A stretch of 55,362 nt of DNA from a virus (Duplodnaviria; Caudoviricetes). The translations under genes were made by a program, and so were the position numbers. The notes beneath the pieces are model-generated. The model ran no database searches. It had not been told where the DNA came from and saw nothing but the letters and a program-made list of their open reading frames with translations. Each line of letters begins with the position of its first letter. The first letter of the stretch is position 1. Positions 1 to 55,362 of the stretch are shown in pieces. The DNA is taken from IMG/VR virus record IMGVR_UViG_3300030329_004008, positions 1 through 55,362 of that record. One strand, given 5' to 3'.

Positions 1-127
1 TTCCTTTCGCCCTTCTGCTGTTGAGGCATTTCACGAGTCTCTAGTAATTTATTCAGCTTTGGTATAGTAAGCTTGTTATAATCTACAGGCTCTTCAGTTA
101 GCTCGTCTGGATTTAAAAATCCTGGAG
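1..127 (+). repeat. Terminal direct repeat, copy 1 (circular overlap)
   Basis: 1-127 matches 55236-55362 except T49 vs G55284. Confidence 0.97.
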
Positions 128-2015
128 GAAGATCTTCTGTTTCATCCTGCTGCTCAAGTGCAGCTTGCTCCATTTGTAATTCAATTTCTCTCTCTTCTTC
201 TGTAGTGAGGTCAGGATCTGTTTGTTTTGGCTTACGAACTGGAGCGACTTCAGTAGCCTCTATATTTAAAAGTCTCTTAGCCTCTTCTACATAGGCTGGA
301 TCTGTATATCTTGTTGAAAATGCATCTAAAAATTCTTCATCATTTACCCCAAGTTCTCCAAGGATAGCTCTTCCTTTACGCTTTAATGCACCAAGGACTG
401 CTCCTGGAGTTCTATCTGATTGTCCTATATTTGCAGCTAATTGTTCTTCTTGATCAACCTCTCCAAGCCTAAGGACAGTTTTTAGCAATATACTATCCCT
501 ATCTATATCTGGAGCAACAACCTCAGGTCTAATATCTGGCTTATCAATCTGAAGATCCTTTAATGATTTAGCAGATCTAGGCTTTCCACCTAAAGCTTTA
601 ACAGCTAAACCCACTGCAGCTTCACCAAATGCACCTTTACTAGCAGTCTCACCAAGCTCTGTTTTAAATTCTGCCATTGCCTGAGTGTGACCTTTATAGC
701 CTGATTGTATAGCTTTTTGAGCTAATAGCTGTAAAGATTCCTCTCCAGCCCCTCCAGCACCTATAACTGCGGCAGATTCAATCCAGTCTACTATGCGCTT
801 ACTGCGCATCTTCTTAATTCTAGAACCAATATCACTGATACTCTGACCTGTTTTTTGAGCTAAGGCAACAGTCTTAGGATGCTTATATATAAAATCATCC
901 ATCTTAGCAGCCATCTTTTTATAGCCCGAAGTAAATCTTGTTCTATTCCATAGCTGTTGAGCAGGCACTCCCATTGACTTGTTAAGCATGAGTTTCAAAC
1001 TAGTACGCTCTATTGCCATAGCAGGTCCCATGTAGGCTAGGGCATTTGCATTAGCCATAGAAGAAGCATTCTCTATGCTATAACCACGATTTCTAAAATA
1101 TTCAAAGCTTTCATTCCATTCATCTGAATATTCAAATATTCCACCAACAGTCATTCCAGTTGTAAGAGCCGCAGAAGGTCCCCCTAGCACGAATCCTAAG
1201 CCAGCAGCACCAAAATTTATAATAGGAGAAGTTAATGCACTGGCAGCCCATGCGCCCATTTGCTTTGCGCTACGCTCCTTCTGTAAGTCTGAAGGACTAG
1301 CATTGTTAAGCCAATGATAATATGCACGATTCTTAGGATCTTGCATATGTTTTTCCATTGCATGCCCGCCATGTTCAGATAACATATTGCTCCACATTTG
1401 CAATGCATCTCCTGTGGTATACCCAGTAACAGGTCTTTTAAATCTGCCTTTCTTATAATCTCTGTATCCTTTATTTATTGCAAGGAAAGCCCCATCTGGA
1501 TTAGCATTCCATAAGCTCTTCCCTACCTTGCCCCAATCTACATAAGCTAAGGATTCTGGTATAGCAAATACATTTGCAGCAGTCTGAGGTAGCGCTGAGG
1601 GTAATGCAGATATAGCTCTCCATAATTGGGTTTCAGCTTCCTGTGTTATAACCTGTCCCCAACCTGGCTCTTTTACGCCAGCATCATAAAGAAATTCAAG
1701 AGGAACATCATCGCTCAATCTGTGCCTTAAAGCAGCTCTCTCTGGATGATTTTCATCGAAAATGTATCCTAATACAAATTGCTGATCTGTAATATTCTCT
1801 GGCTGGGTAAAGACTAATTTTTGCTCACCTGCGAAAGGAGTAACCCAATCGTAATCAGTACCTCCTCGTATTTGAGAGGCAAATTCCTCATAAGACATAA
1901 GTCCTGGAGCTAAGGAAAGCTTATCAGAAATAGTCTGTTCTTTTTCTAGTAGGGCTTTATACTTATCTGATGCATTTATGAGTGCATTAATCTCGGAAAT
2001 ATCTAGTCTGGCCAT
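1..2015 (-). CDS. N-terminal part (~662 aa before the ORF-track Met) of a giant ~2,791-aa internal virion protein / putative virion RNA polymerase; continues across the junction into 55362-48875
   Basis: ATG at 2015, 1 nt after the stop of 2017..4077, reads MARLDISEINALINASDKYKALLEKE... It is in frame with the ATG at 29 (=55264). The ORF track lists no closed ORF here, consistent with a frame open to the edge. Confidence 0.9.
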   Translation of the reverse strand, partial: MARLDISEINALINASDKYKALLEKEQTISDKLSLAPGLMSYEEFASQIRGGTDYDWVTPFAGEQKLVFTQPENITDQQFVLGYIFDENHPERAALRHRLSDDVPLEFLYDAGVKEPGWGQVITQEAETQLWRAISALPSALPQTAANVFAIPESLAYVDWGKVGKSLWNANPDGAFLAINKGYRDYKKGRFKRPVTGYTTGDALQMWSNMLSEHGGHAMEKHMQDPKNRAYYHWLNNASPSDLQKERSAKQMGAWAASALTSPIINFGAAGLGFVLGGPSAALTTGMTVGGIFEYSDEWNESFEYFRNRGYSIENASSMANANALAYMGPAMAIERTSLKLMLNKSMGVPAQQLWNRTRFTSGYKKMAAKMDDFIYKHPKTVALAQKTGQSISDIGSRIKKMRSKRIVDWIESAAVIGAGGAGEESLQLLAQKAIQSGYKGHTQAMAEFKTELGETASKGAFGEAAVGLAVKALGGKPRSAKSLKDLQIDKPDIRPEVVAPDIDRDSILLKTVLRLGEVDQEEQLAANIGQSDRTPGAVLGALKRKGRAILGELGVNDEEFLDAFSTRYTDPAYVEEAKRLLNIEATEVAPVRKPKQTDPDLTTEEEREIELQMEQAALEQQDETEDLPPGFLNPDELTEEPVDYNKLTIPKLNKLLETREMPQQQKGER

Positions 2016-11448: not shown

Positions 11449-11694
11449 TTACCTTTTCCTTGGTTTTCTTTTAGTCGTTTTAGCCTTTTGTAATACAACT
11501 ACATCAGACTGTGTTTCTAGCAATAACTCCTGCAAAGCATCCAATCTTGCCTGAAGTTTAGACATTTCAATATTGATCCTGTATACTTCTCGATCAAGAT
11601 CGTTTTCCTCATGTACATACTGTTCTAGAGGCTTTATTAGCTTTACTACCTCTTTTAGTATCTTTGGTAATAAAAGTCTTACTACTGTTCCCAT
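11449..11694 (-). CDS. Hypothetical coiled-coil protein with basic tail
   Basis: ORF packing; heptad pattern. Confidence 0.6.
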   Translation of the reverse strand: MGTVVRLLLPKILKEVVKLIKPLEQYVHEENDLDREVYRINIEMSKLQARLDALQELLLETQSDVVVLQKAKTTKRKPRKR

Positions 11695-12487
11695 CTATTA
11701 GTGTCCCCCATATAGAAGTTTTTCCGTCTATTATTTGGACTACATCTACTGTAAAGTCTCCTTCTTCTCCGTAGAAATCTACAATAGCAAATGCATGTCC
11801 CCAATTAGTTATCCTGTTCTTTAGCCAAGCGTTGCTTTCGGCTCTCATATCTTTTAAGCATCCTATTGACCATGCAGCTTTAGGACCATCCATGTGAGTG
11901 GCAGTCATTTGCTGAAGATCATGATGATGGCCATACATAATATTACAACCAAGCTTTCGTAAATGATTTGCAGTATGATACTGTCCTGCATATTGATGCC
12001 CATGATATAGATACAACTTCCCAAGCTTAAGATGAGTACCCATAGCATGGTATTTGTAATTCCTTGACCTGAGGTTAACAACATTTTTAAATGCAAACTT
12101 AGCATACGGATACCGCTTAGTGAATTCATTAACCCAATTATCATGGTTTCCTTCACACATATGCTTTTCTTTGCAATCAATCTTATCCAGAGCTTCATCA
12201 ATAATATCCATCCCCAAATTAACATCAATTATATCATCATTACAGTCATTAAGCATGTATTCTAATGGCGGCTTCTCTCTTCCCTTATATTTAAATCTGG
12301 AAAAATGACTCCATTCTCCTACATCTCCTAAATCTACATATATATCTGGCTTCACCATTTCTATAGCCTGAGTAAGTACATTTATTGCAGCTTTATCGTG
12401 CAATGGAAAGTGCTTATCTGGCGTAATGATTGCCGTTCTAACTAAATTCTTTTTATGTCTGCCCATAATATTCTCCTTAAAACCCAA
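11609..12487 (-). CDS. Calcineurin-like metallophosphoesterase
   Basis: Motifs PDKH, DLGD, GNHD, HGH, GHHH. The true start may be the MGRHKK Met after AGGAG. Confidence 0.88.
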   Translation of the reverse strand: MGFKENIMGRHKKNLVRTAIITPDKHFPLHDKAAINVLTQAIEMVKPDIYVDLGDVGEWSHFSRFKYKGREKPPLEYMLNDCNDDIIDVNLGMDIIDEALDKIDCKEKHMCEGNHDNWVNEFTKRYPYAKFAFKNVVNLRSRNYKYHAMGTHLKLGKLYLYHGHQYAGQYHTANHLRKLGCNIMYGHHHDLQQMTATHMDGPKAAWSIGCLKDMRAESNAWLKNRITNWGHAFAIVDFYGEEGDFTVDVVQIIDGKTSIWGTLIDGNSSKTFITKDTKRGSKANKASRTVCT

Positions 12488-45350: not shown

Positions 45351-45496
45351 GAAGAAAAGCTACATCAATTAATGATCAATTCTGGAAAGAATCTTATTTC
45401 ATTCATTCCACGCTTGAAGAAGCATTAGAGCAGGAAGTTGATTCAGAAATAATCAGGATATTAAAAAATCCAAATTTGTTTGTAGCTACTAGTTAG
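45323..45496 (+). CDS. Small hypothetical protein, 57 aa (last gene of the plus arm)
   Basis: Manually translated (MDIYNPKKIGRK...); its stop overlaps the convergent gene by 8 nt. Confidence 0.45.
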   Translation: MDIYNPKKIGRKATSINDQFWKESYFIHSTLEEALEQEVDSEIIRILKNPNLFVATS

Positions 45497-48400
45497 CTAT
45501 CTTTTTCATAAGAGCTGGACTTTCTTTAATGATTGCTCCAGTAACAGGCTCTGGCCATAAATAACCAAGCATACCTTTAGCTTTATATTTAGCTGCATCT
45601 TCCTCATTACCTGCAATTAATGCAAATAATGCGAATGCATCGTATAAGAAGCCTGCCCCTACGCCTGCACCAGGTAGAGACCTTATGTGATAAGCTATTA
45701 ATCTCTCGAGATCTTTAGCGTCATCCCATGGATCATCTATATCATCTGACATGGCGATTGCGGCTAGTATTGGTAGCCATATTAATGCAGCTATGGGAGA
45801 TCCTGCGCCTCCTAGATTGCGAGCACCTAAGAGATAAAATGCACTTCTTGCTACATCAGGTAATACTGGTAATACGTACATTGATTGCATTAATCCTTCT
45901 ATTAAGAAGTGAGTAAGAAACCATCTCTTCAGTCTAAGGACCTCAGGTTTTGAATTTGCTAAGACGTCATTGTTTCTCCATATATCTCTAAACATAAGCT
46001 TTATGGTTGCAGACAGTTTATTATCTGCATTAACTGCGTCTAAAGCATTCTTCCATAATTCTACATCAGATGCTGCTTTTTGTGACTTCCATACAGAAAA
46101 CTGACTAAATAAAGATCCCAATGCACCTCTATATGCCTCACCTACACCTTGTCTACTCATGCTAAAATCAAATTGCATATTTGTAGCAAGCCTACCATAG
46201 TAAATGGCCAAATCTCTATCTCGGCCAGTCAATTCCCACATATTACCAGAAGGAATTTCTCCAGCTTTTTGTGCATTTTGCACTCCTAGTATAAAAGAAA
46301 TGGAACGTATATGCTGTTCCATATCGGACATAATTCCTGCCCTACCAAAATGCTTCCTTATATTCCTTACAATATCTTCCCCTCGCTTAGCAAGAATTAA
46401 CATTGAAGGGTTCTCTCTCACCATATCTCTCAATATAGCTTCGTTGTTGATAGCAAAGTTTGTAATTTTATTCGTTATTCTTTGAATCTTTTCCTGCCTT
46501 AATTTGGCATCGAATTGTGAAGCCTCTTCCTGATCTAATACGTTTTCCCACTTTAGCTTTACTCCCCACAGCTTTGTAAGATTCTTCTTCAATATATTTT
46601 CTGCATTTTTAATGCTAGTACCCTTATTCCGTCTATCAAAATAAGATAGATATTCAGCAACCATCTTGTTGATATTATCTCTCTCCATTTCCATTGCCTC
46701 AAGTTCCTTGACAATAGAGTTAGTAAAGAACTCATTAAATAAAGTCACCCCAGACTCTTCAAGCATAGGCGAGAGTGCATCCTTATTTTGGGTATAATAT
46801 TTTGATGCATCTAAAAATGATCCTAGACCTGACTTAACTACTTTCTCAATATTTCCAAAGGCTTGCCTTATAGCGCTAGTAGGTCCAGATAACATTAAAT
46901 TGAGAAATTTTCTATAAATCTTTAAGCCTCTTACCATTCGAGGGTTTATATTTTGATCAGAGAGGTCCATTCCAAACATTAATGATCGTGCATCCTTCCT
47001 TCCCATTGTAGCTTTATATAAAGAGGAGAATGCATCTGATACTCCTGGCATATCTGTCATAGACATGGCCGTTATTAATGCGGCAGTAAGATTGTTTCTC
47101 TCTATGTTACGAGCTGTATGCTCTAAATAAGATCTAAATACACCGCGATCTGTACGAGACTTAAGAACATCAAAGGCATTACTAACATGCTTGAAGTGCT
47201 TAGCTCTAGTACGAGTGACCATTTTGTCTCCATCTAATGCATCTTCATCTGTCTCTAATAACTCTTCTTTCATTGCTTTTTGGTTAGCAATAGACGTCTT
47301 TAATGCATCTTCCTGAGCCTCTAATTTCACTAGTTCATCACCTGTAACAGCTGTTTTCGCATCTTGGATTTGGCTTAAGGCGTATTCCATAGAATCAATA
47401 GCGTCTTCTATAATGAAAACAAACTTTTCTGGCATATAGATATAAGGAAAGTAGAACTTCTTATATGTAGCCATATCTCCCATCATTGGCTTAAATGGTT
47501 GCTCTAACGACCACTTAGTAAATTCATTTTCTAACATTGCTAGCCTGGATATATCTTCATGAGACCATATTATATTCCCCTGCTCATCATGTAGCTTTCC
47601 ATCTACTATAGCCCTTTTCAATTGTTCAACGCTTTTCCCTGGGAAATGAGTCCTTAATGCATTTAATACCCTTAGGAAGCTCTCTTCAGATTGAGATTTA
47701 AAATGCTCAAATGCCTGATCCATAATAACTCTAGCTTCTTGTACGTATTGATCTAATTGTGCGAGCATTGTACTTGTAAGTGGAGGCATATTCATTATCA
47801 TATCTAGGGTATCATATCTCAATCTACCCTTTTGATCTGTCATTTTATTATCTTTTACAGTACCGTGAATATTAGGATCATATCTAAGAGGTACTGGATT
47901 CTGCCATCCGAAAATAACATCTCCACTATCATAACTTTCCGAAGTAGGAGCCCACCATTGATTAATATACCATCCAGCCCCATGCTCATACACTAATCGT
48001 GAAGGCCTACCAGGTTTCTCTTTAGTCATTTTAGCAGCTCTTTTATCATCTACATATTCAACACGACCATGCATCATCCATGTAAATAATTCTACAATTC
48101 TCTGAGCTCCCTGTTCCTTTGTCCTACCACCATAAAATCCTGCAGCTTCCCAAGCGCTTCTTAAATCTCCATCTATATCTGCATGATCATACACCCCTTC
48201 TACTGAATTCATTATACGAGTCATTCCAATGCTCTCATCAGTAGGGTTCATAAATTTATGTATATGTCCAGCTATATTATCAGCAAAGTCCTGTGTAGCT
48301 TTCCATACCTTGTGATATGCACCAGAGTTTTCAGTAAATCTAAGCTTTCTAGTAACACCCCATCCAAGTCTAACCCCTCTATACCATAAATTATCCCATC

Positions 48401-48881
48401 TAGATCCATCAGCACTAGTCCATGCCTCTGTAAATCTTAGATATCTTTTTAAAGTTCCAATAGGTAGCTTATATAGTAATAGCTTTCTCTGTTGAGTATC
48501 TTTATTGATCGCTATTACTTTCTTCTTGAGCATAGGGGCTAAGCTAATAGCATCAGCATGTAATTCTTCGACAATTGGCAGTGCTAAATGCTGGTTAGCT
48601 TCGATAAGCATCCTTATCTTATTAGCTATTTGTTCACGCTCTGGAAGAGATCCCATAATCTTATTTATAGCTTTAGCACGAGATTCTTTATTTCCAAAAG
48701 ATAGCTTACTTCCAATTTTAATGATGGCTTTTGCTATCTTACTATTAGCATATCTAGGATGCTCTGGATCAGCTTCTATAGAGCTATCTACATATTGTTC
48801 AGTTTGTAATTCAAAGCTCTTAGCTTCTGTCTCTATAGCGTTTAATGCTCTAGTGGCTATGTTGCATTTATCCATTAACAA
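45489..48881 (-). CDS. Large putative internal virion protein, 1130 aa
   Basis: Coupled to the RNAP-like gene; LFSQFSVW motif and hydrophobic C-terminal segments like large ejection proteins. Confidence 0.7.
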   Translation of the reverse strand: MLMDKCNIATRALNAIETEAKSFELQTEQYVDSSIEADPEHPRYANSKIAKAIIKIGSKLSFGNKESRAKAINKIMGSLPEREQIANKIRMLIEANQHLALPIVEELHADAISLAPMLKKKVIAINKDTQQRKLLLYKLPIGTLKRYLRFTEAWTSADGSRWDNLWYRGVRLGWGVTRKLRFTENSGAYHKVWKATQDFADNIAGHIHKFMNPTDESIGMTRIMNSVEGVYDHADIDGDLRSAWEAAGFYGGRTKEQGAQRIVELFTWMMHGRVEYVDDKRAAKMTKEKPGRPSRLVYEHGAGWYINQWWAPTSESYDSGDVIFGWQNPVPLRYDPNIHGTVKDNKMTDQKGRLRYDTLDMIMNMPPLTSTMLAQLDQYVQEARVIMDQAFEHFKSQSEESFLRVLNALRTHFPGKSVEQLKRAIVDGKLHDEQGNIIWSHEDISRLAMLENEFTKWSLEQPFKPMMGDMATYKKFYFPYIYMPEKFVFIIEDAIDSMEYALSQIQDAKTAVTGDELVKLEAQEDALKTSIANQKAMKEELLETDEDALDGDKMVTRTRAKHFKHVSNAFDVLKSRTDRGVFRSYLEHTARNIERNNLTAALITAMSMTDMPGVSDAFSSLYKATMGRKDARSLMFGMDLSDQNINPRMVRGLKIYRKFLNLMLSGPTSAIRQAFGNIEKVVKSGLGSFLDASKYYTQNKDALSPMLEESGVTLFNEFFTNSIVKELEAMEMERDNINKMVAEYLSYFDRRNKGTSIKNAENILKKNLTKLWGVKLKWENVLDQEEASQFDAKLRQEKIQRITNKITNFAINNEAILRDMVRENPSMLILAKRGEDIVRNIRKHFGRAGIMSDMEQHIRSISFILGVQNAQKAGEIPSGNMWELTGRDRDLAIYYGRLATNMQFDFSMSRQGVGEAYRGALGSLFSQFSVWKSQKAASDVELWKNALDAVNADNKLSATIKLMFRDIWRNNDVLANSKPEVLRLKRWFLTHFLIEGLMQSMYVLPVLPDVARSAFYLLGARNLGGAGSPIAALIWLPILAAIAMSDDIDDPWDDAKDLERLIAYHIRSLPGAGVGAGFLYDAFALFALIAGNEEDAAKYKAKGMLGYLWPEPVTGAIIKESPALMKKIAN

Positions 48882-51800
48882 TTCCTTTTAAGGATTCTTG
48901 AAAGAGGATCATATGCAACTCTACGAGCTGATTCACTACGTCCTTCAATATCCTTAATCTTTTTATTATATAATTTTAAATACTTGCTCATTAATACAGG
49001 ATCTAACACTGTAAGGTCTGGCTCTGAAGATACTGGAGGCAGATTATTGCGTTGTACTGTGTACATTAGCTTGCCTTGTTGATCCAATTGGGCGAACCCT
49101 CTTAAGAATGCAATAGTTGCTGAGAATTGTCCTAAAGGTCCCATCTCCATATAAGCAGCTCCCCACCAAGAGGTAAATCTAATGAGATCTGGATTATAAT
49201 CCCAAGATACAGCTTCATTATTTTCAGCTATACGCTCCATTATAGATGCATATCCTTCTCCAGTTAGATTCTCACCTTCTCCCTTCGAGTTCCACATTTG
49301 ATTAGCATAAGATGTGCCATCTGCAATACTTTGCTCTAGATCTTTATCAGTAATCTCTTCTCCAGTCAATTCTCTATGATATATGCGCTCATTATCCATT
49401 GCTTCTTGCATTAAAGTATCTATATCTTCTTCAAGATCTGCCATAGATTGCAAGTGCACTGTATTATACACATCCTGCTCATACTCAACTGGGGAGATTT
49501 TATTAGGCTCAGCTAAAGATGCGATACCAGTTCTCTCATCTCCATACCACTGTCTAGCAAATTCTACTGTCACCTCTTCTAATGGAGATAATGTATCATT
49601 AAATTCTACTGAGCTTACTAGACCACTTAGAGCTTCATTTCCATCATACTTATCCATTAAATATCCTTGACGATCATTAATATAGTCTAATAGTTTCTTG
49701 CTTTCCTTTAATAATGATGTAACTGAATGACTATGATCAAAGCCTCTACCTCTACGGATAGTTCTAGTTAATGCACTTATTGATATAATGGGCTTTATTA
49801 AGTCCATATATTCAGTATTATTTTCATTTATTTCAGATTTCCAGTTACCATTTTCATCTGCGATATAGAACAACCTAGATATAAGTTTATCTCTGGAATA
49901 GTTCCATTCAGATAATAACAAATGCTTATGGTTATCTACCGCAGCCTGCAACCAGATTCGTAACTGCTCTTCCATTGTCATTGAATCGTTCATCTCAGGA
50001 AACAATACTTGATCCAGGAGCTTATGAACCTTAATCTGATTGCCATCATTAAGTTTAATTCCATTGAAATTGTGGTTTAGCTGTCCTAATACATTTTGTA
50101 ATGCAGCTATTTGCCCTACAGATCTTTTCCCTACCTGGAACATTTGTGTTAACAATCTAACATTTTCTGCCTTAGAAAGGTCTATCTCTCTAGCCATGCT
50201 TGGAAGTGAAATAGCTTTCATTCTATTAGCAGCCTCTGCATCTAGTAAAAACTGCTGAATACTAGTAGCTAGATCATCGGGAATAAATTCAACCTGTATT
50301 GCATCACCGTCATAGTCACCTTCAAGTAACTTAATAGAGACATTATCTGAAACAATTGCTTGCCCTCCTCTATTATGCAATGCCTTAACTCTTAATACTC
50401 TCGCACCTCCTACGTATGGAACTGGCGACCTGTGTATCAATGTCAAAATCTTTGTGTTCTCAAGCCACTTGTTTATTGCATTTAGACTAAGCTTTTTAGC
50501 CTCATTAACAGTTCCACCATTCTCTTTTGCATAAGCAACATATACTTGATGAGCATTTGTAGCAGCTAATGTGATTTCATCATCATTATGTGTATTGAAA
50601 TAATCTGGAGCAAGATCTACATATGTACCTTTACCATTATTAAGAGATAATGCAGGGGTTATGACCTGTGTTCTTAAAATCTTATTTAACATACCCATAG
50701 CATCAGCATGCATTCCTAATCCTAGCTTAAACTTCTCTAATAATGCAGTGGTCATTGCATGTGGAGAATCTGAATGCACACTCTGTGCAAACTTGAGTAA
50801 GGTAGATGCATTAAATGTATTAGATCCAGTCAGTGTAAATATGCTCTTTAATCGCTCCTTAATTCTTGGCATCATAAAGCCTTTCAAATCATTTACCAGG
50901 TCTGTATCATGAACATAGTTAGTCCATTGCATTCCGAATGTTGCGGTCTTCTTTGGCTCGTGATACTTTATAAGCCCTATTTCCTCACCTGCAATATCAA
51001 TAATCTCTCCAGATTTATAGTTCGATATCTTAGCCTCATCATCTGTCATAAGTATATCAACTTCATTCCTGCCTTCTGCAGTTACTTGATATATCCTGCC
51101 ATTGTCGTCAACTTCTGCTAATAGCTGCCTATTACCATCTTTCCCTATCTTGATAATTTTCATTCCAGCTTCAGGTTCAAACATTTCATGCTTAACAGCA
51201 AGAGATAGATCTGCCTTCCATATAACTGTCTTGAATAGCCTCATTAAAGGATTGCTTCCAAATGCTTCGTGCATATCATTCGTAAATGTACTGCTAATAA
51301 TGGATGCACCATCAGTACGATTCTTATTGCCCATACCAGCTATTATATCCATCATATTTCCTTCATTGCCATTACGGTCAACAAATACTATCTGATTTCT
51401 TTCAGCTTCATTAGTAGCTATTTGCACAGCTTTTGCACCTCTCATAAGAGGGGAAGTGAATACTGGCGTAGTAGCAATCTTGATACGTCTAAATAATTCT
51501 GCACCATTATTAATCATATTTGCTGGCATCAATCTTCTCATCATTTCATATCTAGCAATCTCTCCAGCTAGCCATTTCTGTGAGTATCTTGCCTTGCTTC
51601 TTACATGGTTACCATCCTTGTCAATTCTGTAACCCATAAAGTTAAGCATCTGATCTTCTGTTATAAAGCCACCTACCACTTGAGCTTTCCAATATGCTTT
51701 AATTTGATTTTCATTTCTAGCGATAGACATATGGCGATCTAATATAGGAGCAAACATCATATGCCCAGAATCTCCTCTGGTAGACATAAGAGCTAATCCG

Positions 51801-54800
51801 TGAATTACACCTTGTCTGTCTTCATAAGTAAAGTTATTTAATGCATACACTTGCAACTGCTTAATCTGATCATCAGACAGAACATCTACAAACTTATCGG
51901 TAAATGCCTTGCCATATTTTGTCACTATTTCATATATATCTTTTAGGTTCAAGAATACAGGCTTTTGCATTCCCCACTTCTTATCAGCTTTGGTAGCTTC
52001 ATATATTAAATTCTGATCTCTAGTAGAGTTTGACTTTTCTGTAAAATTACTTTTATTCCTTTTTATTACAAGCTCTCCAGAAGTTCGGTATTCTAAGTTC
52101 CTTCTCCTAGGAGTGATACCAGATGCAGGATTTACAGTAACAGTAGAAGCAGTACGCACAAAGAACTGTTTAATCCTTCTTCTTTCTATAGATCCTGAAG
52201 GAAAATCTGAGTACCTATACCCTGTAGCTACTTGCAAAGGACCTTCACCCCATGCGTCAAAAGCTTCTTGAGGAGTAAGGGTTGGTTGATTTAAGAATTG
52301 CAATACAGAACTCAGTAATGATATCATCTTATTGTGAGGTATATTAATTCCCAGTTCCCTCATGAAGGTATATTCAGTACTAACTCCATGCTTAGCTCTT
52401 ATATCATTATCATTTCCAGGGATAAAGCTTAAATCTTCTTCAACAGCAGCATATATCTCATCAAATGCATCATTGAACTCTTCTCTTGTAGCATAAACAT
52501 CATTCATCGCATGCATTCTTTTTACTATCTTGCCAATCTGAACATGCTGATTAGCCCATACATCAAAAATAGCAGCCATATCAAATGGTATCTCTTCAGC
52601 TAATTTTGCTATATATTTTTTGATATTAAAAGACTTGCCCAGCTTTGTCTGCATTGCATTTAATGCATTGTCAAATATTCTTAAAGCTTGATTCCCAGCC
52701 TCAGTTCCAGGCTCTATCTGTTGATAGTCTATCTGTCCAAGAGACATCTCCTCTGCTGGAATTGTATAATGCATTCTCTGAGGACCTTTGTCTGTTGGGA
52801 TGAAGCGATTGTAATCCCATATATCTTTAAATCTACTATAACTTAATTTAGCTCTAAATGGATCTTCATAATGAGCAAGCTGGACTTGATACCTATTTCC
52901 ATCAGAGCCTACAAAGTCATGCATAATTGGATTCTCTCTTCCCTGAGCCTCTGGGCCAGAAAAGAAGTCCACTAACATAGCTTCGGTGCCAGTCTTAATT
53001 TCTGTCTCTGATATAATATTACCAGCATCATTCATCTTATAATCAAGCTTATAAGTGCCAACAATCTCGTTCTTTGCATTTCTTACATTGTAAGATATAA
53101 TTTTCTTCCCATCTTTTCTGCGCTTAATGTCAGATACTTTATGCCCAGATGGAGGTACAAGGAATGTATCTGTACTAGCTCCTCCTGGTAAGCTAAATGA
53201 ATAAGCCTCGATAGCTCCTTTGAAATGCTTTTTAATTAAGGATATTGCTGATTCTCTAGTTCCTATATTGACAAAATCAAGATCATGCACTACAGAATCC
53301 TTAGGTCTATAGACTGAGCCTTGGGTAGAATAAGCAATACTTCCTGTCAATATAATATCATCTGCAGTACCGATCTTAGTCATAATATCTTTTGCGATCG
53401 GATTCATATCAAAAGCTTCCTGAAAATCTATTAGAACATATCCAGGTTTCTTAGTAGTTGCTACGAAACTTTCATGCTTAAAGGTATTGTCTACAATCTT
53501 GTTAATAGCGGGCTGTATAACGCTCCAATTTGCTCCAGTAAGACTATCTAATACCTTCTGAACAAATACCTTAATACGTTTTAATAAGCTATCGCTAACG
53601 TTTAATTCCTTAGCAAGTCTTTCACTAAAGCCAGACTGTAATAGGTCTTGGAATATTTCCTTAGTAGCTAATCTTAATGCAATCCTACCATTGATATCTG
53701 GATTGTCTTTATATATCTGCTCAATTGCATTCTTATACCTATCAGTGTCCTTTACCGCTTCTCTTATATCGTAAAAATCTTGTGAATAACTAAGCATTTC
53801 TGACAATGCATCTGCCATCACCTTAGATACGTGATTTATATCATGCCTATTTAGATCAACTCTCTTGTTAGCTAGATTTACAAACAGCTCCTGTACGTCA
53901 TTGACTTCAAATCCATAATCAATTAAGAAATTTAACAATCTACTTTGAGGAGAATCATCTTCAAAGCGAGTTAATGGAGTAAATGAAAACTCAAATCCCA
54001 TCTTCTTCCAGAAGTCAATAGAATCTGGATGAGCTATAATATTTATTATCTGCTCACCCCTACCTACCATTACCTCCTTGATTGATTCAAAAAATCTAGT
54101 CCCCAAGCCTTTGCCTCTAAGGTTTTCTGGCACTACAATATTACCAATACGTGACTTGTCAGTGGGATGAGGAGTCCATTTAAGTCCATATTTTTTAACA
54201 AGTTGGTTTAATAGTATCGTAGAAGCAGCTTCATGTTGAGCTCCTTTACGCTTATAAGCCTCTACTGCAATCTCTTCACCAACTTGAAATAGCTGATCAC
54301 CTTCTACAAATTTCTGTGCAATATATTGAGAGGGCCTTCCAAATACTTTCTTGACATGAGCCCAGAACTTGCGAAGGAAATTTTTAACTCTAGCTTTTAA
54401 GCTGCCAGGAGCGTCCTTTAATGCATTAGCATAGTATTCTCCAACATATTGAGTTAACTGCTCCTCAGTCTTCATATCCTGTAATGCTTTTTCAATAAGA
54501 GGATGACCTCTCAATGCTTTAACTAGTATATGAAAATACTCGTGCGGAGCTGTATCTACAGTAGCCTTTCCTTTAGCCCACTCTGCAATAGTATTGAATG
54601 CACGCCCTGCCTGCTCTTCTCCTGAGAGATGGTCAATTATTTGATCTACCTCTTTCCCTGCTATGTTAGGGAAGTCTTCTCTTAGCTTAGCTTTAACCCT
54701 ATCAGCCCATTCCTGTGCATCATCCGCTAAAGGAAGTTTAGTTTCTTTAATGGCTTGATAATCAATGCCCCAATCATGTTTATCCTTCAAGTCTTCAAGG

Positions 54801-55362
54801 TATGCTCTATTTTTTGCAGAACTAATTGACTCTTCCATTAAAGGGGTTGGATTATCTCTAATAAGGTCTAGAACATCTTCTTTAGTGTTTAGTAAGGAAA
54901 CATCCAACCCTCTACCTTGAGCAATTTCTTTTAAATCTTTAAGAGATCTATGCTGATTAGTCTCGATCCAATTCTCTTGACGTCTCTTTCTTTCTTGCCA
55001 TATAGCAGGATGCACACCTTCTGGCGCACCTAATGCATCAATTCTATCAGCTTCTGCCCTTTCAGCATCCATCTTGGCTGCTTCAGCTTCTTCCTCTTGC
55101 TGTGGAGCGGTAAGCTCTGTCTCTTCTCCAAAGATTCTAACCTGACCAGAAACATTAGGCTCTGTGTCTTCATATCCAGGAACCCCAAAGGCTTCTTGCT
55201 CATCTTTTTTCTGAAGCCTACGTACAAGGTCAGCCTTCCTTTCGCCCTTCTGCTGTTGAGGCATTTCACGAGTCTCTAGTAATGTATTCAGCTTTGGTAT
55301 AGTAAGCTTGTTATAATCTACAGGCTCTTCAGTTAGCTCGTCTGGATTTAAAAATCCTGGAG
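48875..55362 (-). CDS. C-terminal part of a giant polyvalent protein: HExxH peptidase + GNAT + Pol-beta NTase + two-barrel (RdRP/crAss vRNAP-like) RNA polymerase
   Basis: HEYFH 54530-54544; RGKGLG 54101-54118; TGS...HDLD ~53276-53347; RTDGASIIS ~51293-51319; HRSP 50423-50434; GDYDGD 50303-50320; AVDNHK ~49925-49942. The frame stays open to the window end. Confidence 0.85.
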   Translation of the reverse strand, partial: PGFLNPDELTEEPVDYNKLTIPKLNTLLETREMPQQQKGERKADLVRRLQKKDEQEAFGVPGYEDTEPNVSGQVRIFGEETELTAPQQEEEAEAAKMDAERAEADRIDALGAPEGVHPAIWQERKRRQENWIETNQHRSLKDLKEIAQGRGLDVSLLNTKEDVLDLIRDNPTPLMEESISSAKNRAYLEDLKDKHDWGIDYQAIKETKLPLADDAQEWADRVKAKLREDFPNIAGKEVDQIIDHLSGEEQAGRAFNTIAEWAKGKATVDTAPHEYFHILVKALRGHPLIEKALQDMKTEEQLTQYVGEYYANALKDAPGSLKARVKNFLRKFWAHVKKVFGRPSQYIAQKFVEGDQLFQVGEEIAVEAYKRKGAQHEAASTILLNQLVKKYGLKWTPHPTDKSRIGNIVVPENLRGKGLGTRFFESIKEVMVGRGEQIINIIAHPDSIDFWKKMGFEFSFTPLTRFEDDSPQSRLLNFLIDYGFEVNDVQELFVNLANKRVDLNRHDINHVSKVMADALSEMLSYSQDFYDIREAVKDTDRYKNAIEQIYKDNPDINGRIALRLATKEIFQDLLQSGFSERLAKELNVSDSLLKRIKVFVQKVLDSLTGANWSVIQPAINKIVDNTFKHESFVATTKKPGYVLIDFQEAFDMNPIAKDIMTKIGTADDIILTGSIAYSTQGSVYRPKDSVVHDLDFVNIGTRESAISLIKKHFKGAIEAYSFSLPGGASTDTFLVPPSGHKVSDIKRRKDGKKIISYNVRNAKNEIVGTYKLDYKMNDAGNIISETEIKTGTEAMLVDFFSGPEAQGRENPIMHDFVGSDGNRYQVQLAHYEDPFRAKLSYSRFKDIWDYNRFIPTDKGPQRMHYTIPAEEMSLGQIDYQQIEPGTEAGNQALRIFDNALNAMQTKLGKSFNIKKYIAKLAEEIPFDMAAIFDVWANQHVQIGKIVKRMHAMNDVYATREEFNDAFDEIYAAVEEDLSFIPGNDNDIRAKHGVSTEYTFMRELGINIPHNKMISLLSSVLQFLNQPTLTPQEAFDAWGEGPLQVATGYRYSDFPSGSIERRRIKQFFVRTASTVTVNPASGITPRRRNLEYRTSGELVIKRNKSNFTEKSNSTRDQNLIYEATKADKKWGMQKPVFLNLKDIYEIVTKYGKAFTDKFVDVLSDDQIKQLQVYALNNFTYEDRQGVIHGLALMSTRGDSGHMMFAPILDRHMSIARNENQIKAYWKAQVVGGFITEDQMLNFMGYRIDKDGNHVRSKARYSQKWLAGEIARYEMMRRLMPANMINNGAELFRRIKIATTPVFTSPLMRGAKAVQIATNEAERNQIVFVDRNGNEGNMMDIIAGMGNKNRTDGASIISSTFTNDMHEAFGSNPLMRLFKTVIWKADLSLAVKHEMFEPEAGMKIIKIGKDGNRQLLAEVDDNGRIYQVTAEGRNEVDILMTDDEAKISNYKSGEIIDIAGEEIGLIKYHEPKKTATFGMQWTNYVHDTDLVNDLKGFMMPRIKERLKSIFTLTGSNTFNASTLLKFAQSVHSDSPHAMTTALLEKFKLGLGMHADAMGMLNKILRTQVITPALSLNNGKGTYVDLAPDYFNTHNDDEITLAATNAHQVYVAYAKENGGTVNEAKKLSLNAINKWLENTKILTLIHRSPVPYVGGARVLRVKALHNRGGQAIVSDNVSIKLLEGDYDGDAIQVEFIPDDLATSIQQFLLDAEAANRMKAISLPSMAREIDLSKAENVRLLTQMFQVGKRSVGQIAALQNVLGQLNHNFNGIKLNDGNQIKVHKLLDQVLFPEMNDSMTMEEQLRIWLQAAVDNHKHLLLSEWNYSRDKLISRLFYIADENGNWKSEINENNTEYMDLIKPIISISALTRTIRRGRGFDHSHSVTSLLKESKKLLDYINDRQGYLMDKYDGNEALSGLVSSVEFNDTLSPLEEVTVEFARQWYGDERTGIASLAEPNKISPVEYEQDVYNTVHLQSMADLEEDIDTLMQEAMDNERIYHRELTGEEITDKDLEQSIADGTSYANQMWNSKGEGENLTGEGYASIMERIAENNEAVSWDYNPDLIRFTSWWGAAYMEMGPLGQFSATIAFLRGFAQLDQQGKLMYTVQRNNLPPVSSEPDLTVLDPVLMSKYLKLYNKKIKDIEGRSESARRVAYDPLSRILKRNC
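55236..55362 (+). repeat. Terminal direct repeat, copy 2
   Basis: Matches 1-127 with a single mismatch. Confidence 0.97.

What the first reader, a model, noticed from the sequence alone, without database searches (positions are those of the whole stretch)
52780..54620. Peptidase, GNAT and nucleotidyltransferase domains fused upstream of the polymerase
Seen: TAPHEYFH...EEQL (zincin HExxH plus downstream Glu); IVVPENLRGKGLGTRFF...IDFWKKMGF (GNAT acetyl-CoA motif); IILTGSIAY...HDLDFV (Pol-beta GS/DxD). Known: such domains are typical of phage/plasmid polyvalent proteins delivered with DNA, and zincin domains have been predicted in crAss RNAP gene clusters. Inference: an injected polyprotein in which the peptidase releases or activates the RNAP while GNAT and NTase modify host targets or nascent RNA. 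I do not know this combination with an RNAP to be described.
Basis: partly seen in the sequence, partly recalled or inferred. Interest (0 to 1): 0.8.

Follow-up and report, generated by a model that had tools for sequence, protein, structure and literature searches.

The report
Effector domains fused to phage virion polymerase
A small marine crAss-like phage encodes one 2,791-residue protein that joins a probable metal protease, half of an acetyltransferase and a previously unclassified nucleotide-transferring domain to its own RNA polymerase, which is a new variation on a known way for phages to deliver several tools into the host at once.

Summary
The motifs are real. They lie on the minus strand in one ORF, upstream of a DYDGD two-barrel RNA polymerase. 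The contig ends repeat (1-127 = 55236-55362) and the gene wraps round them, giving a 2,791-aa protein.

Its order is: N-terminal part with a hydrophobic Gly/Ala stretch, acidic linker, HExxH zincin-like domain, ~90-aa GNAT half, helical domain, Pol-beta-like NTase domain, RNAP.

- **Zincin:** HExxH is invariant in 22/22 relatives, but no peptidase family matches significantly.
- **GNAT:** passes Pfam cut-offs, but only for motifs A/B.
- **NTase:** no Pfam, NCBIfam or PADLOC model matches. The G-S, DxD and third Asp are invariant, and a KL..R and K-D-x-x-D motif pair resembles DUF1814 (AbiEii/MenT). The only solved-structure hits in the domain are weak and all are nucleotidyltransferases.

The helical+NTase unit is a ~400-aa insertion absent from the closest RNAP orthologues. 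It recurs in 492 protein clusters, and in 29 of 36 viral loci it lies in or beside a crAss-type RNAP ORF.

Zincin-RNAP fusion is already published. The GNAT and NTase additions were not found in the papers searched.

Folds could not be modelled because structure prediction was off. Verdict: a new variant of a known kind, of moderate interest.

The parts
1..2015 (-). 5' part of the giant gene. The ATG is at 2015-2013 and the frame runs off base 1 and continues at 55235. It encodes P0002 residues 1-671; residues 1-662 lie at 30-2015.
   Evidence: Translation ends in MPQQQKGER, which is the start of the 55264 ORF. The stored 2,791-aa protein P0002 is.
1134..1253 (-). Hydrophobic Gly/Ala-rich stretch (P0002 255-294), a possible membrane-inserting hairpin of an ejection protein.
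   Evidence: Kyte-Doolittle 19-residue window peaks at 1.44. It is conserved in the RNAP orthologues (consensus). The function is inferred.
54671..55264 (-). Acidic, Lys-rich linker (P0002 663-860). The ATG at 55264 is an internal Met, not the start.
   Evidence: Composition by bins.
54221..54670 (-). Zincin-like domain (P0002 861-1010). HEYFH lies at 54530-54544 and the candidate third ligand Glu930 at 54461-54463.
   Evidence: D-T-x-P-H-E-Y-x-H is invariant in 22/22 and the Glu is present in at least 90%. It is also invariant in 8/8. No significant peptidase-family match was found.
53966..54220 (-). Half-GNAT (P0002 1011-1095). The Pfam match is at 53984-54172, with motif A RGKGLG.
   Evidence: PF00583 scores 22.6-25.6 bits (cut-off 20.7); PF13673 25.9 (23.6); FR47 22.9 (22.1). 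Only profile positions 54-116 of 116 are matched. PDB phmmer finds serotonin N-acetyltransferase at E 0.23.
53456..53965 (-). Helical domain that precedes the NTase domain (P0002 1096-1265). It is the first half of the inserted module.
   Evidence: Paired with the NTase domain in 34 of 36 viral loci. Absent from the closest RNAP orthologues. No family match.
52787..53455 (-). Pol-beta-like nucleotidyltransferase domain (P0002 1266-1488). Key residues: G1303-S1304 (53339-53344), D1323/D1325 (53276-53284), D1428 (52967-52969), K1468..R1473 and K1475-D1476-x-x-D1479 (52814-52849).
   Evidence: Invariant residues in 30/30 and 53 sequences. PDB profile hits are only NTases. The family has 492 clusters. 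No curated model matches.
51251..52765 (-). Conserved middle region (P0002 1496-2000) shared with the RNAP orthologues. Function unassigned.
   Evidence: 48-49% identity to P0020/26/27. HMM hits in at least 12 zincin loci.
48875..51250 (-). Two-barrel RNA polymerase part (P0002 2001-2791) and stop codon. R-S-P ... DYDGD lies at 50303-50317. The sole cysteine, C2791, is at 48878-48880.
   Evidence: D-x-D-G-D is invariant in 14/14, with R..P 38 residues upstream. Weak in-register hits to P23-45 gp96 virion RNAP 8h2n/8h2m. Single Cys.
45489..48875 (-). Next giant gene (1,128 aa from the ATG at 48875, overlapping the stop as TAATG). It starts MDKC, and its only Cys is residue 4.
   Evidence: No Pfam or PHROG match.

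Best explanation
This is the fused 'transcription block' protein of a small (55,235-bp) crAss-like marine phage. It is a virion-packaged, host-injected polyvalent protein whose C-terminal third is the early-gene RNA polymerase.

Inferred roles, in order along the chain:
1. The N-terminal part, with its hydrophobic hairpin, helps passage through the envelope.
2. The zincin-like domain is a Glu-zincin metallopeptidase. It either cuts the polyprotein into working pieces or cuts host envelope or proteins.
3. The ~90-residue GNAT remnant keeps the acetyl-CoA pyrophosphate-binding beta4-alpha3-beta5-alpha4 core.
4. The inserted helical+NTase module is a Mg-dependent nucleotidyltransferase of the Pol-beta superfamily, closest in motif set to DUF1814 enzymes (AbiEii, MenT, JHP933). 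It most likely adds a nucleotide to an RNA 3' end (tRNA or a transcript) or to a protein soon after injection.

Shown here: the domain anatomy, its conservation, the insertion relative to orthologues, and the recurrent linkage of the module to crAss-type RNAP genes.

Inferred: packaging, injection, cleavage, every catalytic activity and every target.
For: **Gene and genome**
- The gene wraps the contig ends.
- The genome has terminase, portal, capsid, tail fibre and tailspike genes upstream on the same strand, and a primase-helicase on the other strand.

**RNAP**
- DxDGD is invariant in 14/14, with R-x-P upstream.
- 2 of 3 PDB profile hits are the P23-45 virion two-barrel RNAP, aligned on that motif at E 0.42-0.57.

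**Zincin**
- HExxH is invariant in 22/22 and the downstream Glu is present in at least 90%.
- 0.08 HExxH is expected by chance.
- The zincin domain shares an ORF with the RNAP in 15 of 29 loci.
- Published precedent exists.

**GNAT**
- It passes three Pfam cut-offs.
- The same domain is precomputed in orthologues P0020, P0026 and P0027.

**NTase**
- G, S, R, H, D-x-D, D, K, R and K-D-x-x-D are invariant in 30/30.
- All 4 PDB hits of profile A5 are NTase-fold proteins aligned on G[GS]..DxD.
- 3 of 4 hits of profile A7 are too.
- The motif set matches the DUF1814 description in Dy 2014.

**Context of the NTase module**
- It shares an ORF with a crAss-type RNAP motif in 12 of 36 loci, and sits in another giant ORF of the locus in 17 of 36.
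- Relatives are fused to a 2H phosphoesterase, ART-PolyVal, NADAR and SLOG.
- It was found in only 1 contig of 185,579 species genomes.
Against: - No fold model could be made.
- No curated family matches the zincin significantly. Best results: SprT-like in 3/22 members at E 0.044, and M61 at E 0.015. None of 11 PDB hits is a peptidase.
- No curated family matches the NTase: 0/22 in Pfam, PADLOC and NCBIfam. PF08843 finds nothing in this genome at E<=10.
- The solved-structure hits are individually non-significant (E 0.06-0.7). The first, broader profile (A3) hit no NTase in 8 hits.
- The G-S to DxD spacer is 18 residues, outside the 9-13 of the Pol-beta consensus.
- The GNAT lacks the N-terminal half that normally forms the acceptor site, and no stand-alone relative was found.
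- The RNAP part shows no detectable similarity to phi14:2 gp66 by hhalign or to any PDB chain with the 8-sequence profile.
- There is no proteomic or expression evidence for this phage, and no cleavage site is known.
Confidence: 0.6

Rival explanations
1. The NTase module works with the polymerase on the phage's own early RNA rather than on host targets. It could add a 3' tail, repair 3' ends or prime.
For: The module lies in the same ORF as a crAss-type RNAP motif in 12 of 36 loci and in another giant ORF of the locus in 17 of 36. It occurs both N-terminal and C-terminal to the RNAP. One relative is fused to a tRNA-ligase-type 2H cyclic phosphodiesterase, an RNA-end healing enzyme.
Against: The closest RNAP orthologues, and the part of phi14:2 that was searched (record 38,000-100,000), lack the module. 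It is therefore dispensable for transcription. It also travels with host-directed domains such as ART-PolyVal and NADAR.
Confidence: 0.2
2. The zincin-like domain does not process the polyprotein. It attacks the host envelope or host proteins during entry, and the giant protein enters uncut.
For: The phi14:2 preprint itself offers peptidoglycan digestion as an alternative. In phi14:2 the HExxH protein is a separate gene downstream of the RNAP, so it need not release anything in cis. Separate cargo proteins carry single terminal cysteines that could link and release them without a protease.
Against: Iyer 2017 argues from domain networks that zincins are the processing hub of polyvalent proteins. 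Zincin and RNAP share an ORF in 15 of 29 loci.
Confidence: 0.3
3. One or more of the three 'enzymes' is a catalytically dead structural remnant. The GNAT half is the most likely case. It would be kept as a spacer or as a ligand-binding or packaging element.
For: Only profile positions 54-116 of 116 of PF00583 are matched, and about 90 residues are available. The GNAT is present in only 4 of the 8 zincin-bearing proteins with RNAP similarity and in 1 of the 15 loci with RNAP hits. No solo relative was found.
Against: Motif A (R-x-x-G-x-G) is kept in all four GNAT-bearing orthologues at 38-47% identity. The zincin and NTase catalytic residues are invariant over wide divergence.
Confidence: 0.3
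4. The 'NTase' domain has another fold, and its conserved Asp, Lys and Arg residues serve another chemistry, such as a nuclease or phosphoesterase.
For: No significant match to any NTase model. The G-S to DxD spacer is atypical at 18 residues.
Against: All solved-structure hits that fall in the domain are NTases, aligned in register on the catalytic motif. The full set of hG[GS], DhD, a third acid, KL..R and +DxxD matches a described NTase clade.
Confidence: 0.12

Closest known systems
Giant virion protein block of crAss-like phage phi14:2 (paper names gp65/gp66/gp67; GenBank KC821624 tags gp076-gp078)
   Same: Giant genes at the end of the structural block. One is a single-chain two-barrel RNAP with R-x-P ... 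D-[FY]-D-x-D. One has an HExxH domain. Single cysteines sit at the protein termini. The preprint says the proteins are fused in some phages.
   Different: No detectable sequence similarity (hhalign). In phi14:2 the HExxH protein is separate and downstream of the RNAP; here it is fused and upstream. The searched part of phi14:2 (38,000-100,000) has no GNAT or NTase module. This genome is 55 kb against 100 kb.
Polyvalent proteins of phages and conjugative elements (Iyer et al. 2017, PMC5512222)
   Same: Many effector domains in one injected polypeptide with a zincin hub. GNAT and Pol-beta NTase are listed domain classes. [quoted passage not shown]
   Different: That paper found Pol-beta NTase domains only in conjugative-element proteins, as a minimal four-strand version fused to ArdC-N. 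Its two GNAT families are RimI-like and full size. The RNAP there is the T7-like N4 enzyme, not a two-barrel one. Its supplementary architecture lists could not be seen.
DUF1814 nucleotidyltransferases: AbiEii, MenT1-4, JHP933
   Same: hG[GS] with an over-long spacer before DhD, an Arg between them, a C-terminal K-L...R motif and a +DxxD pentad (Dy 2014 passages). The best PDB hit of profile A5 is 4ok0. I take 4ok0 to be JHP933 from recall and from a 20-residue numbering offset that fits G39 and D55/D57.
   Different: PF08843 does not match. The spacer is 18 residues, not 15. The K-to-R distance is 5, not 7. The +DxxD follows immediately. There is an obligatory N-terminal helical domain and no antitoxin partner. 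The domain is embedded in giant phage proteins.
P23-45 gp96 tape-measure-fused virion RNAP (PDB 8H2N, 8H2M)
   Same: A virion-delivered two-barrel RNAP in one polypeptide with metallopeptidase and membrane segments. It is the only solved RNAP hit, aligned on R-x-P ... DFDGD.
   Different: E is only 0.4-0.6. The RNAP is N-terminal there and part of a tape measure of a siphovirus.

Membership tests
Zincin (HExxH + Glu) metallopeptidase | HExxH on a helix | tested here: met
   HEYFH at P0002 903-907. H, E and H are invariant in 22/22 and 8/8.
Zincin (HExxH + Glu) metallopeptidase | Third metal ligand (Glu) on the next helix | tested here: inconclusive
   Glu930, 23 residues after the second His, is present in at least 90% of 22 sequences. 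Its role as a ligand cannot be shown without a structure.
Zincin (HExxH + Glu) metallopeptidase | Significant profile match to a peptidase family or solved peptidase | tested here: not met
   Pfam results were SprT-like in 3/22 members (best E 0.044), M61 at E 0.015 and DUF5700 at E 0.024, all below cut-off. None of the 11 PDB hits is a peptidase.
Zincin (HExxH + Glu) metallopeptidase | Three-stranded sheet plus helices fold | not testable with these tools
GNAT acetyltransferase | Motif A (R/Q-x-x-G-x-G/A) and a Pfam match above the gathering score | tested here: met
   The motif is RGKGLG. PF00583 scores 25.6 bits (cut-off 20.7), PF13673 25.9 (23.6) and PF08445 22.9 (22.1).
GNAT acetyltransferase | Complete fold of about 140-160 residues including beta1-beta3 and alpha1-alpha2 | tested here: not met
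   Only profile positions 54-116 of 116 are matched. The PDB alignment covers chain residues 97-152 of 166. About 90 residues lie between the zincin end and the next domain.
Pol-beta superfamily nucleotidyltransferase | hG[GS], [DE]h[DE]h and a third acidic residue h[DE]h | tested here: met
   LTGS, HDLDF and VDFF are present. G, S, D, D and D are invariant in 30/30, and G, D, D and D in 53/53.
Pol-beta superfamily nucleotidyltransferase | Spacer of 9-13 residues between G[GS] and DhD | tested here: not met
   The spacer is 18 residues. DUF1814 also exceeds the consensus, at 15.
Pol-beta superfamily nucleotidyltransferase | Similarity to solved NTases | tested here: inconclusive
   With profile A5, 4 of 4 hits are NTases at E 0.061-0.67. 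With A7, 3 of 4 at E 0.25. With A3, 0 of 8.
DUF1814 (AbiEii/MenT) | Match to PF08843 | tested here: not met
   0 matches in this genome at E<=10 and 0 of 22 members. PADLOC also gives 0 of 22.
DUF1814 (AbiEii/MenT) | Motif III (KLxAaxxR) and motif IV (+DxxD) | tested here: inconclusive
   A-K-L-x-x-x-R and K-D-I-W-D are invariant. The pentad fits, but the K-R spacing differs.
Single-chain two-barrel virion RNAP of crAss-like phages | DxDxD metal motif in a beta-prime-type barrel with R-x-P upstream | tested here: met
   R-S-P ... DYDGD is present, and D-x-D-G-D is invariant in 14/14. It aligns with 779-DFDGD of P23-45 gp96.
Single-chain two-barrel virion RNAP of crAss-like phages | Detectable homology to phi14:2 gp66 | tested here: not met
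   hhalign probability is 0.3%. The A2 profile finds no PDB chain. Yutin 2021 states that these RNAPs are extremely divergent from each other.
Polyvalent protein | Two or more effector-type domains in one phage polypeptide with a zincin | tested here: met
   Relatives carry ART-PolyVal, NADAR, SLOG, helicase and nuclease domains.

The most novel reading that the evidence does not exclude
The helical+NTase module is a phage-borne cousin of the AbiEii/MenT abortive-infection toxins. It is injected together with the virion RNA polymerase. In the first minutes of infection it adds nucleotides to host tRNA 3' ends (or mends ends damaged by host defences) to tilt translation toward the phage. On this reading crAss-type polymerase proteins serve as interchangeable carriers for such effectors, and separate carriers are held in ejection order by single terminal cysteines instead of by a peptide bond.
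Probability: 0.2. Interest if true: 0.8.

Novelty: new variant of a known kind. Interest (0 to 1): 0.5.

Why it matters
crAss-like phages are among the most abundant viruses known, yet almost nothing is known about what their giant injected proteins do apart from transcription. This locus shows that the polymerase polypeptide carries swappable effector domains. It also points to one concrete candidate: a phage-restricted nucleotidyltransferase-like family with no curated model. That family has 492 clusters and is tied to the polymerase gene block in 29 of 36 loci. Its motif likeness to bacterial tRNA-modifying toxins gives a testable hypothesis for early host takeover or counter-defence.

Tried and rejected
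- **ESM Atlas.** The window's sequence and three homologues are not held. P0066 is held but gave no usable hit and has no model.
- **The search of earlier findings.** Closed.
- **tblastn against deposited phages.** The 2,129-aa ORF and an NTase domain gave no match.
- **hhalign against phi14:2.** The orthologue profile against phi14:2 gp077 and gp078 gave nothing. The zincin profile against gp076 gave only a 3.4%-probability collinear helix.
- **AbiEii alignment for profile-profile comparison.** I could not obtain one.
- **Recent acquisition of the insert.** Rejected on composition. The insert has GC 0.34-0.36, against 0.36-0.37 in the neighbouring RNAP part.
- **PHROGs.** Only a weak phrog_3281 hit (E 0.008) in the linker. 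My reading of two SAP/HeH-like motifs there is recall only.
- **Methyltransferase hit.** The hit of the RNAP profile to 8bif (E 0.001) falls outside the catalytic motif. I treat it as chance.
- **Supplementary files.** They were closed. The domain-architecture lists of Iyer 2017 and the figures and supplements of Yutin 2018/2021 might already show GNAT or NTase domains in such proteins. Yutin 2018 was not read; it is known to me only through the citation.
Full report
**What is there**

The finding lies on the minus strand inside the largest ORF of the window. Within the window that ORF reads from an ATG at 55264 to a stop at 48875 (2,129 aa), and its frame stays open to the window's last base. 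The window is the whole 55,362-base viral record. Its first 127 bases repeat at its end at 99% identity. A second minus-strand ORF, from an ATG at 2015, runs off base 1, and its last nine residues equal the first nine of the 55264 ORF. The protein database holds the joined product of 2,791 aa at 100% identity. The genome is therefore circular or circularly permuted at 55,235 bp. The gene crosses the contig ends, and the ATG at 55264 is an internal Met. I number residues below by the 2,791-aa protein. The in-window numbering is that number minus 662.

**Genome context**

On the same strand upstream lie a small and a large terminase, portal, major capsid protein, tail fibre and tailspike. On the other strand lie a primase-helicase and a Sak4-like protein. 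Next come a 686-aa ORF, the giant gene, and a 1,128-aa gene whose ATG overlaps the giant gene's stop. Giant genes at the end of the structural block match the layout of phi14:2 in its GenBank record.

**The polymerase**

The C-terminal part contains H-R-S-P, then 35 residues, then G-D-Y-D-G-D.
- In an alignment of 14 core regions from related viral contigs, D-x-D-G-D is invariant and the R and P are at least 90% conserved.
- The profile of that alignment finds three PDB sequences at E<=10.
- Two of them are 8h2n and 8h2m, aligned exactly on R-N-P ... D-F-D-G-D (E 0.42 and 0.57).
- The source preprint identifies those entries as the virion two-barrel RNAP of Thermus phage P23-45 gp96.
- From memory, the same R-x-P ... 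D-F-D-G-D pattern marks the beta-prime barrel of bacterial RNAP.
- Against this, hhalign finds no similarity to phi14:2 gp66, and the eight-sequence orthologue profile finds no PDB chain. Yutin 2021 states that these polymerases are extremely divergent from each other.

I accept the polymerase assignment at about 0.9.

**Zincin-like domain (861-1010)**

- In 22 domain sequences, 19-41% identical to ours, D-T-x-P-H-E-Y-x-H is invariant. A Glu 23 residues after the second His is present in at least 90%.
- From composition, 0.08 HExxH would be expected by chance in this protein.
- No curated peptidase model matches significantly. SprT-like appears in 3 of 22 members (best E 0.044), M61 once (E 0.015) and DUF5700 once (E 0.024).
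- None of the 11 weak PDB hits is a peptidase.
- The HExxH protein of phi14:2 (GenBank gp076, HEIMH at 245) shares only a collinear helix at 3.4% hhalign probability.

The assignment therefore rests on motif conservation and published precedent. I put it at about 0.8.

**GNAT (1011-1095)**

- On the 261-aa segment, PF13673 (25.9 bits, cut-off 23.6), PF00583 (25.6, cut-off 20.7) and PF08445 (22.9, cut-off 22.1) pass their cut-offs. PF13508 does not.
- On the whole ORF only PF00583 passes.
- The match covers profile positions 54-116 of 116.
- The only PDB hits of the whole ORF are two serotonin N-acetyltransferase chains (E 0.23), aligned to their residues 97-152.
- The alignment with orthologues leaves about 90 residues for the domain.

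So motifs A and B are present, that is the acetyl-CoA-binding core, but the N-terminal half of the fold is not. A search for stand-alone relatives of 55-177 aa found none.

**Helical plus NTase module (1096-1495)**

Distribution:
- Segment BLAST shows that the closest RNAP orthologues (P0020, P0026, P0027; 43-50% identity in the RNAP part) have the N-terminal part, zincin, GNAT, middle region and RNAP. They lack this stretch.
- The alignment places the insertion between the GNAT's K-M-G-F and the conserved M-x-Y-x-I-P-x-E-E-M.
- Its GC content does not differ from the neighbouring sequence.
- The same module occurs in about 35 other giant proteins and in 21 proteins of 250-694 aa.
- A profile search of 1.84 billion cluster representatives finds 492 at E<=0.001, 333 at E<=1e-10 and 167 at E<=1e-30. 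Most are giant proteins of up to 6,332 aa.
- The helical and NTase halves occur together in 34 of 36 viral loci.
- No match was found in deposited phage genomes.
- Only one contig among 185,579 species genomes matched.

Is it a nucleotidyltransferase?
- No Pfam, PADLOC or NCBIfam model matches any of 22 members in the NTase region.
- PF08843 finds nothing in this genome at E<=10.
- In a clean 30-sequence domain alignment the invariant residues are L, G-S, R, H-D-x-D, D-x-F, K, R, K-D and D. In full-protein numbers these are G1303, S1304, R1315, H1322, D1323, D1325, D1428, K1468, R1473, K1475, D1476 and D1479.
- These make the three Pol-beta motifs (hG[GS], DhD, a third acid) plus A-K-L-x-x-x-R and K-D-x-x-D.
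- Dy et al. 2014 describe DUF1814/AbiEii proteins as having hG[GS]x15DhD with a longer spacer than the consensus, an Arg inside motif II, a KLxAaxxR motif and a +DxxD pentad. All are needed for toxicity or GTP binding (passages).
- Our spacer is 18 residues, and our K-to-R distance is 5 rather than 7.
- The clean profile finds four PDB sequences at E<=10, and all four are NTase-fold proteins aligned on G[GS] ... DxD. They are 4ok0 (E 0.061) and three TM1012 'putative nucleotidyltransferase' entries (E 0.62-0.67).
- I take 4ok0 to be H. pylori JHP933 from memory. Subtracting a 20-residue tag gives the G39 and D55/D57 reported for JHP933. The PDB title says only 'Putative'.
- A larger 46-sequence profile again finds TM1012 three times (E 0.25-0.27), loses 4ok0, and adds one designed helical binder in the helical part.
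- The earlier, less clean profile found no NTase among 8 hits.

I put the NTase fold at about 0.8, and a specific DUF1814 relationship at about 0.4.

**Linkage of the module to the polymerase block**

My first scan used only D-x-D-G-D and found one co-occurrence. The consensus of eleven giant members then showed the phi14:2-type G-x-D-F-D-I-D-K. I rescanned for R-x-P followed by D-[FYW]-D-x-D.
- 12 of 36 loci have the motif in the same ORF as the module.
- 17 of 36 have it in another giant ORF of the locus, mostly the adjacent one.
- 7 have none within the fetched 10-kb flanks.
- Among 188 proteins with the module, 21 carry the motif. One of these, a 506-aa protein, is evidently a chance match. 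Many of these proteins are fragments, so this is a lower bound.
- The module lies N-terminal to the RNAP in some proteins and C-terminal in others.
- The zincin of our type shares an ORF with the RNAP in 15 of 29 loci. It is directly followed by an NTase domain in 8 of 29.
- Of 195 proteins with any of my domain models, only ours has all seven parts.
- The module's neighbours in other giant proteins are a 2H phosphoesterase of the tRNA-ligase type (one protein, E 4e-7), ART-PolyVal, NADAR, cpYpsA/SLOG, DUF4326, a RecD-like helicase with a PD-(D/E)XK nuclease, a zeta-toxin-like kinase and NDK. These are the domain classes of polyvalent proteins.

**How it most likely works**

The protein is best read as a polyvalent virion protein built on the crAss-type polymerase. 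Packaging and injection are inferred from three things: the gene's position, the demonstrated injection of phi14:2 gp66 (abstract and passages), and the polyvalent-protein literature. The zincin may cut the chain or act on the host, and both ideas are in print. The NTase most likely transfers an NMP to an RNA 3' end or to a protein. The 2H-phosphoesterase fusion and the MenT/AbiEii likeness favour RNA. No step of catalysis was tested.

**Comparison with what is known**

- Zincin with a virion RNAP is described for N4-like phages, crAss-like phages and P23-45.
- GNAT and Pol-beta NTase domains are listed among polyvalent-protein domains. Iyer 2017, however, found the NTase only in conjugative elements, as a minimal version.
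- The words acetyltransferase and nucleotidyltransferase do not occur in the phi14:2 preprint or in the main text of Yutin 2021.
- A five-term search returned four papers, none relevant.
- I could not see supplements.

I therefore rate the finding as a new variant of a known kind.

**Side observation**

The 2,791-aa protein has exactly one cysteine, and it is its last residue. The next protein has exactly one, at residue 4. About 19 would be expected in the giant protein from the 0.69% Cys content of 17 other ORFs of this genome. The Poisson probability of one or fewer is about 9e-8.
- Six RNAP orthologues each have a single Cys within their last three residues.
- In phi14:2 the three consecutive giant proteins have Cys only at the last residue; at residues 3 and 2179 of 2,180; and at residue 3, respectively.
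- Most consecutive giant ORFs in the fetched loci show the same pattern. There are exceptions, such as L026 with 22 and 8 Cys.
- Three literature searches, and a term search of the phi14:2 preprint, found no mention of this.

A head-to-tail link between successive cargo proteins would fit, but it is untested.

Noticed in passing
window 48878-48880 (Cys2791, minus strand) and 48864-48866 (Cys4 of the next gene); also L003 (phi14:2) and loci L004-L068: The giant cargo proteins are almost free of cysteine except for a single Cys at a terminus. Here the 2,791-aa protein has one Cys (its last residue), and the following 1,128-aa protein has one (residue 4). In phi14:2 the three consecutive giant proteins carry Cys only at the C-end, at both ends, and at the N-end, in gene order. 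About 19 Cys would be expected here (P about 9e-8). This suggests head-to-tail disulfide or metal links between ejected proteins. It was not found in three literature searches.
   Followed up: partly
window 1-127 and 55236-55362: A 127-nt direct repeat at the two contig ends (99% identity) shows a circular or permuted genome of 55,235 bp. IMG/VR labels the record 'linear', and the largest gene is split by the linearisation.
   Followed up: yes
proteins P0047-P0067 and N-termini of P0006, P0009, P0011, P0014: Many module-bearing proteins start with a shared motif of M, one to five residues, C, [IVP], N, x, N, then E-F/W-K. This suggests a conserved N-terminal element that begins at the terminal Cys.
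   Followed up: no
window 54671-55264 and about 30-130 (linker, minus strand): Two stretches in the acidic linker look like SAP/HeH helix-extended-helix motifs. This is my recall of the motif. The only tool signal is a weak phrog_3281 hit, E 0.008.
   Followed up: no
window 11609-12487 (minus strand): A metallophosphoesterase gene lies inside the structural block (phrog_221, E 2.5e-21). A gene with the same annotation sits in the structural block of phi14:2, a small piece of shared synteny.
   Followed up: no
L073 (contig of 138,768 bases labelled as an uncultured Myxococcales MAG): This is the only hit of the NTase module among 185,579 species genomes (52% identity). It may be a phage contig binned into a MAG or a prophage. 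It was not examined.
   Followed up: no
L050 6731-14158: A related polymerase polyprotein has its GNAT half upstream of the zincin rather than downstream, and has a second HExxH (HEISH at 936). The same parts have therefore been shuffled in order.
   Followed up: no
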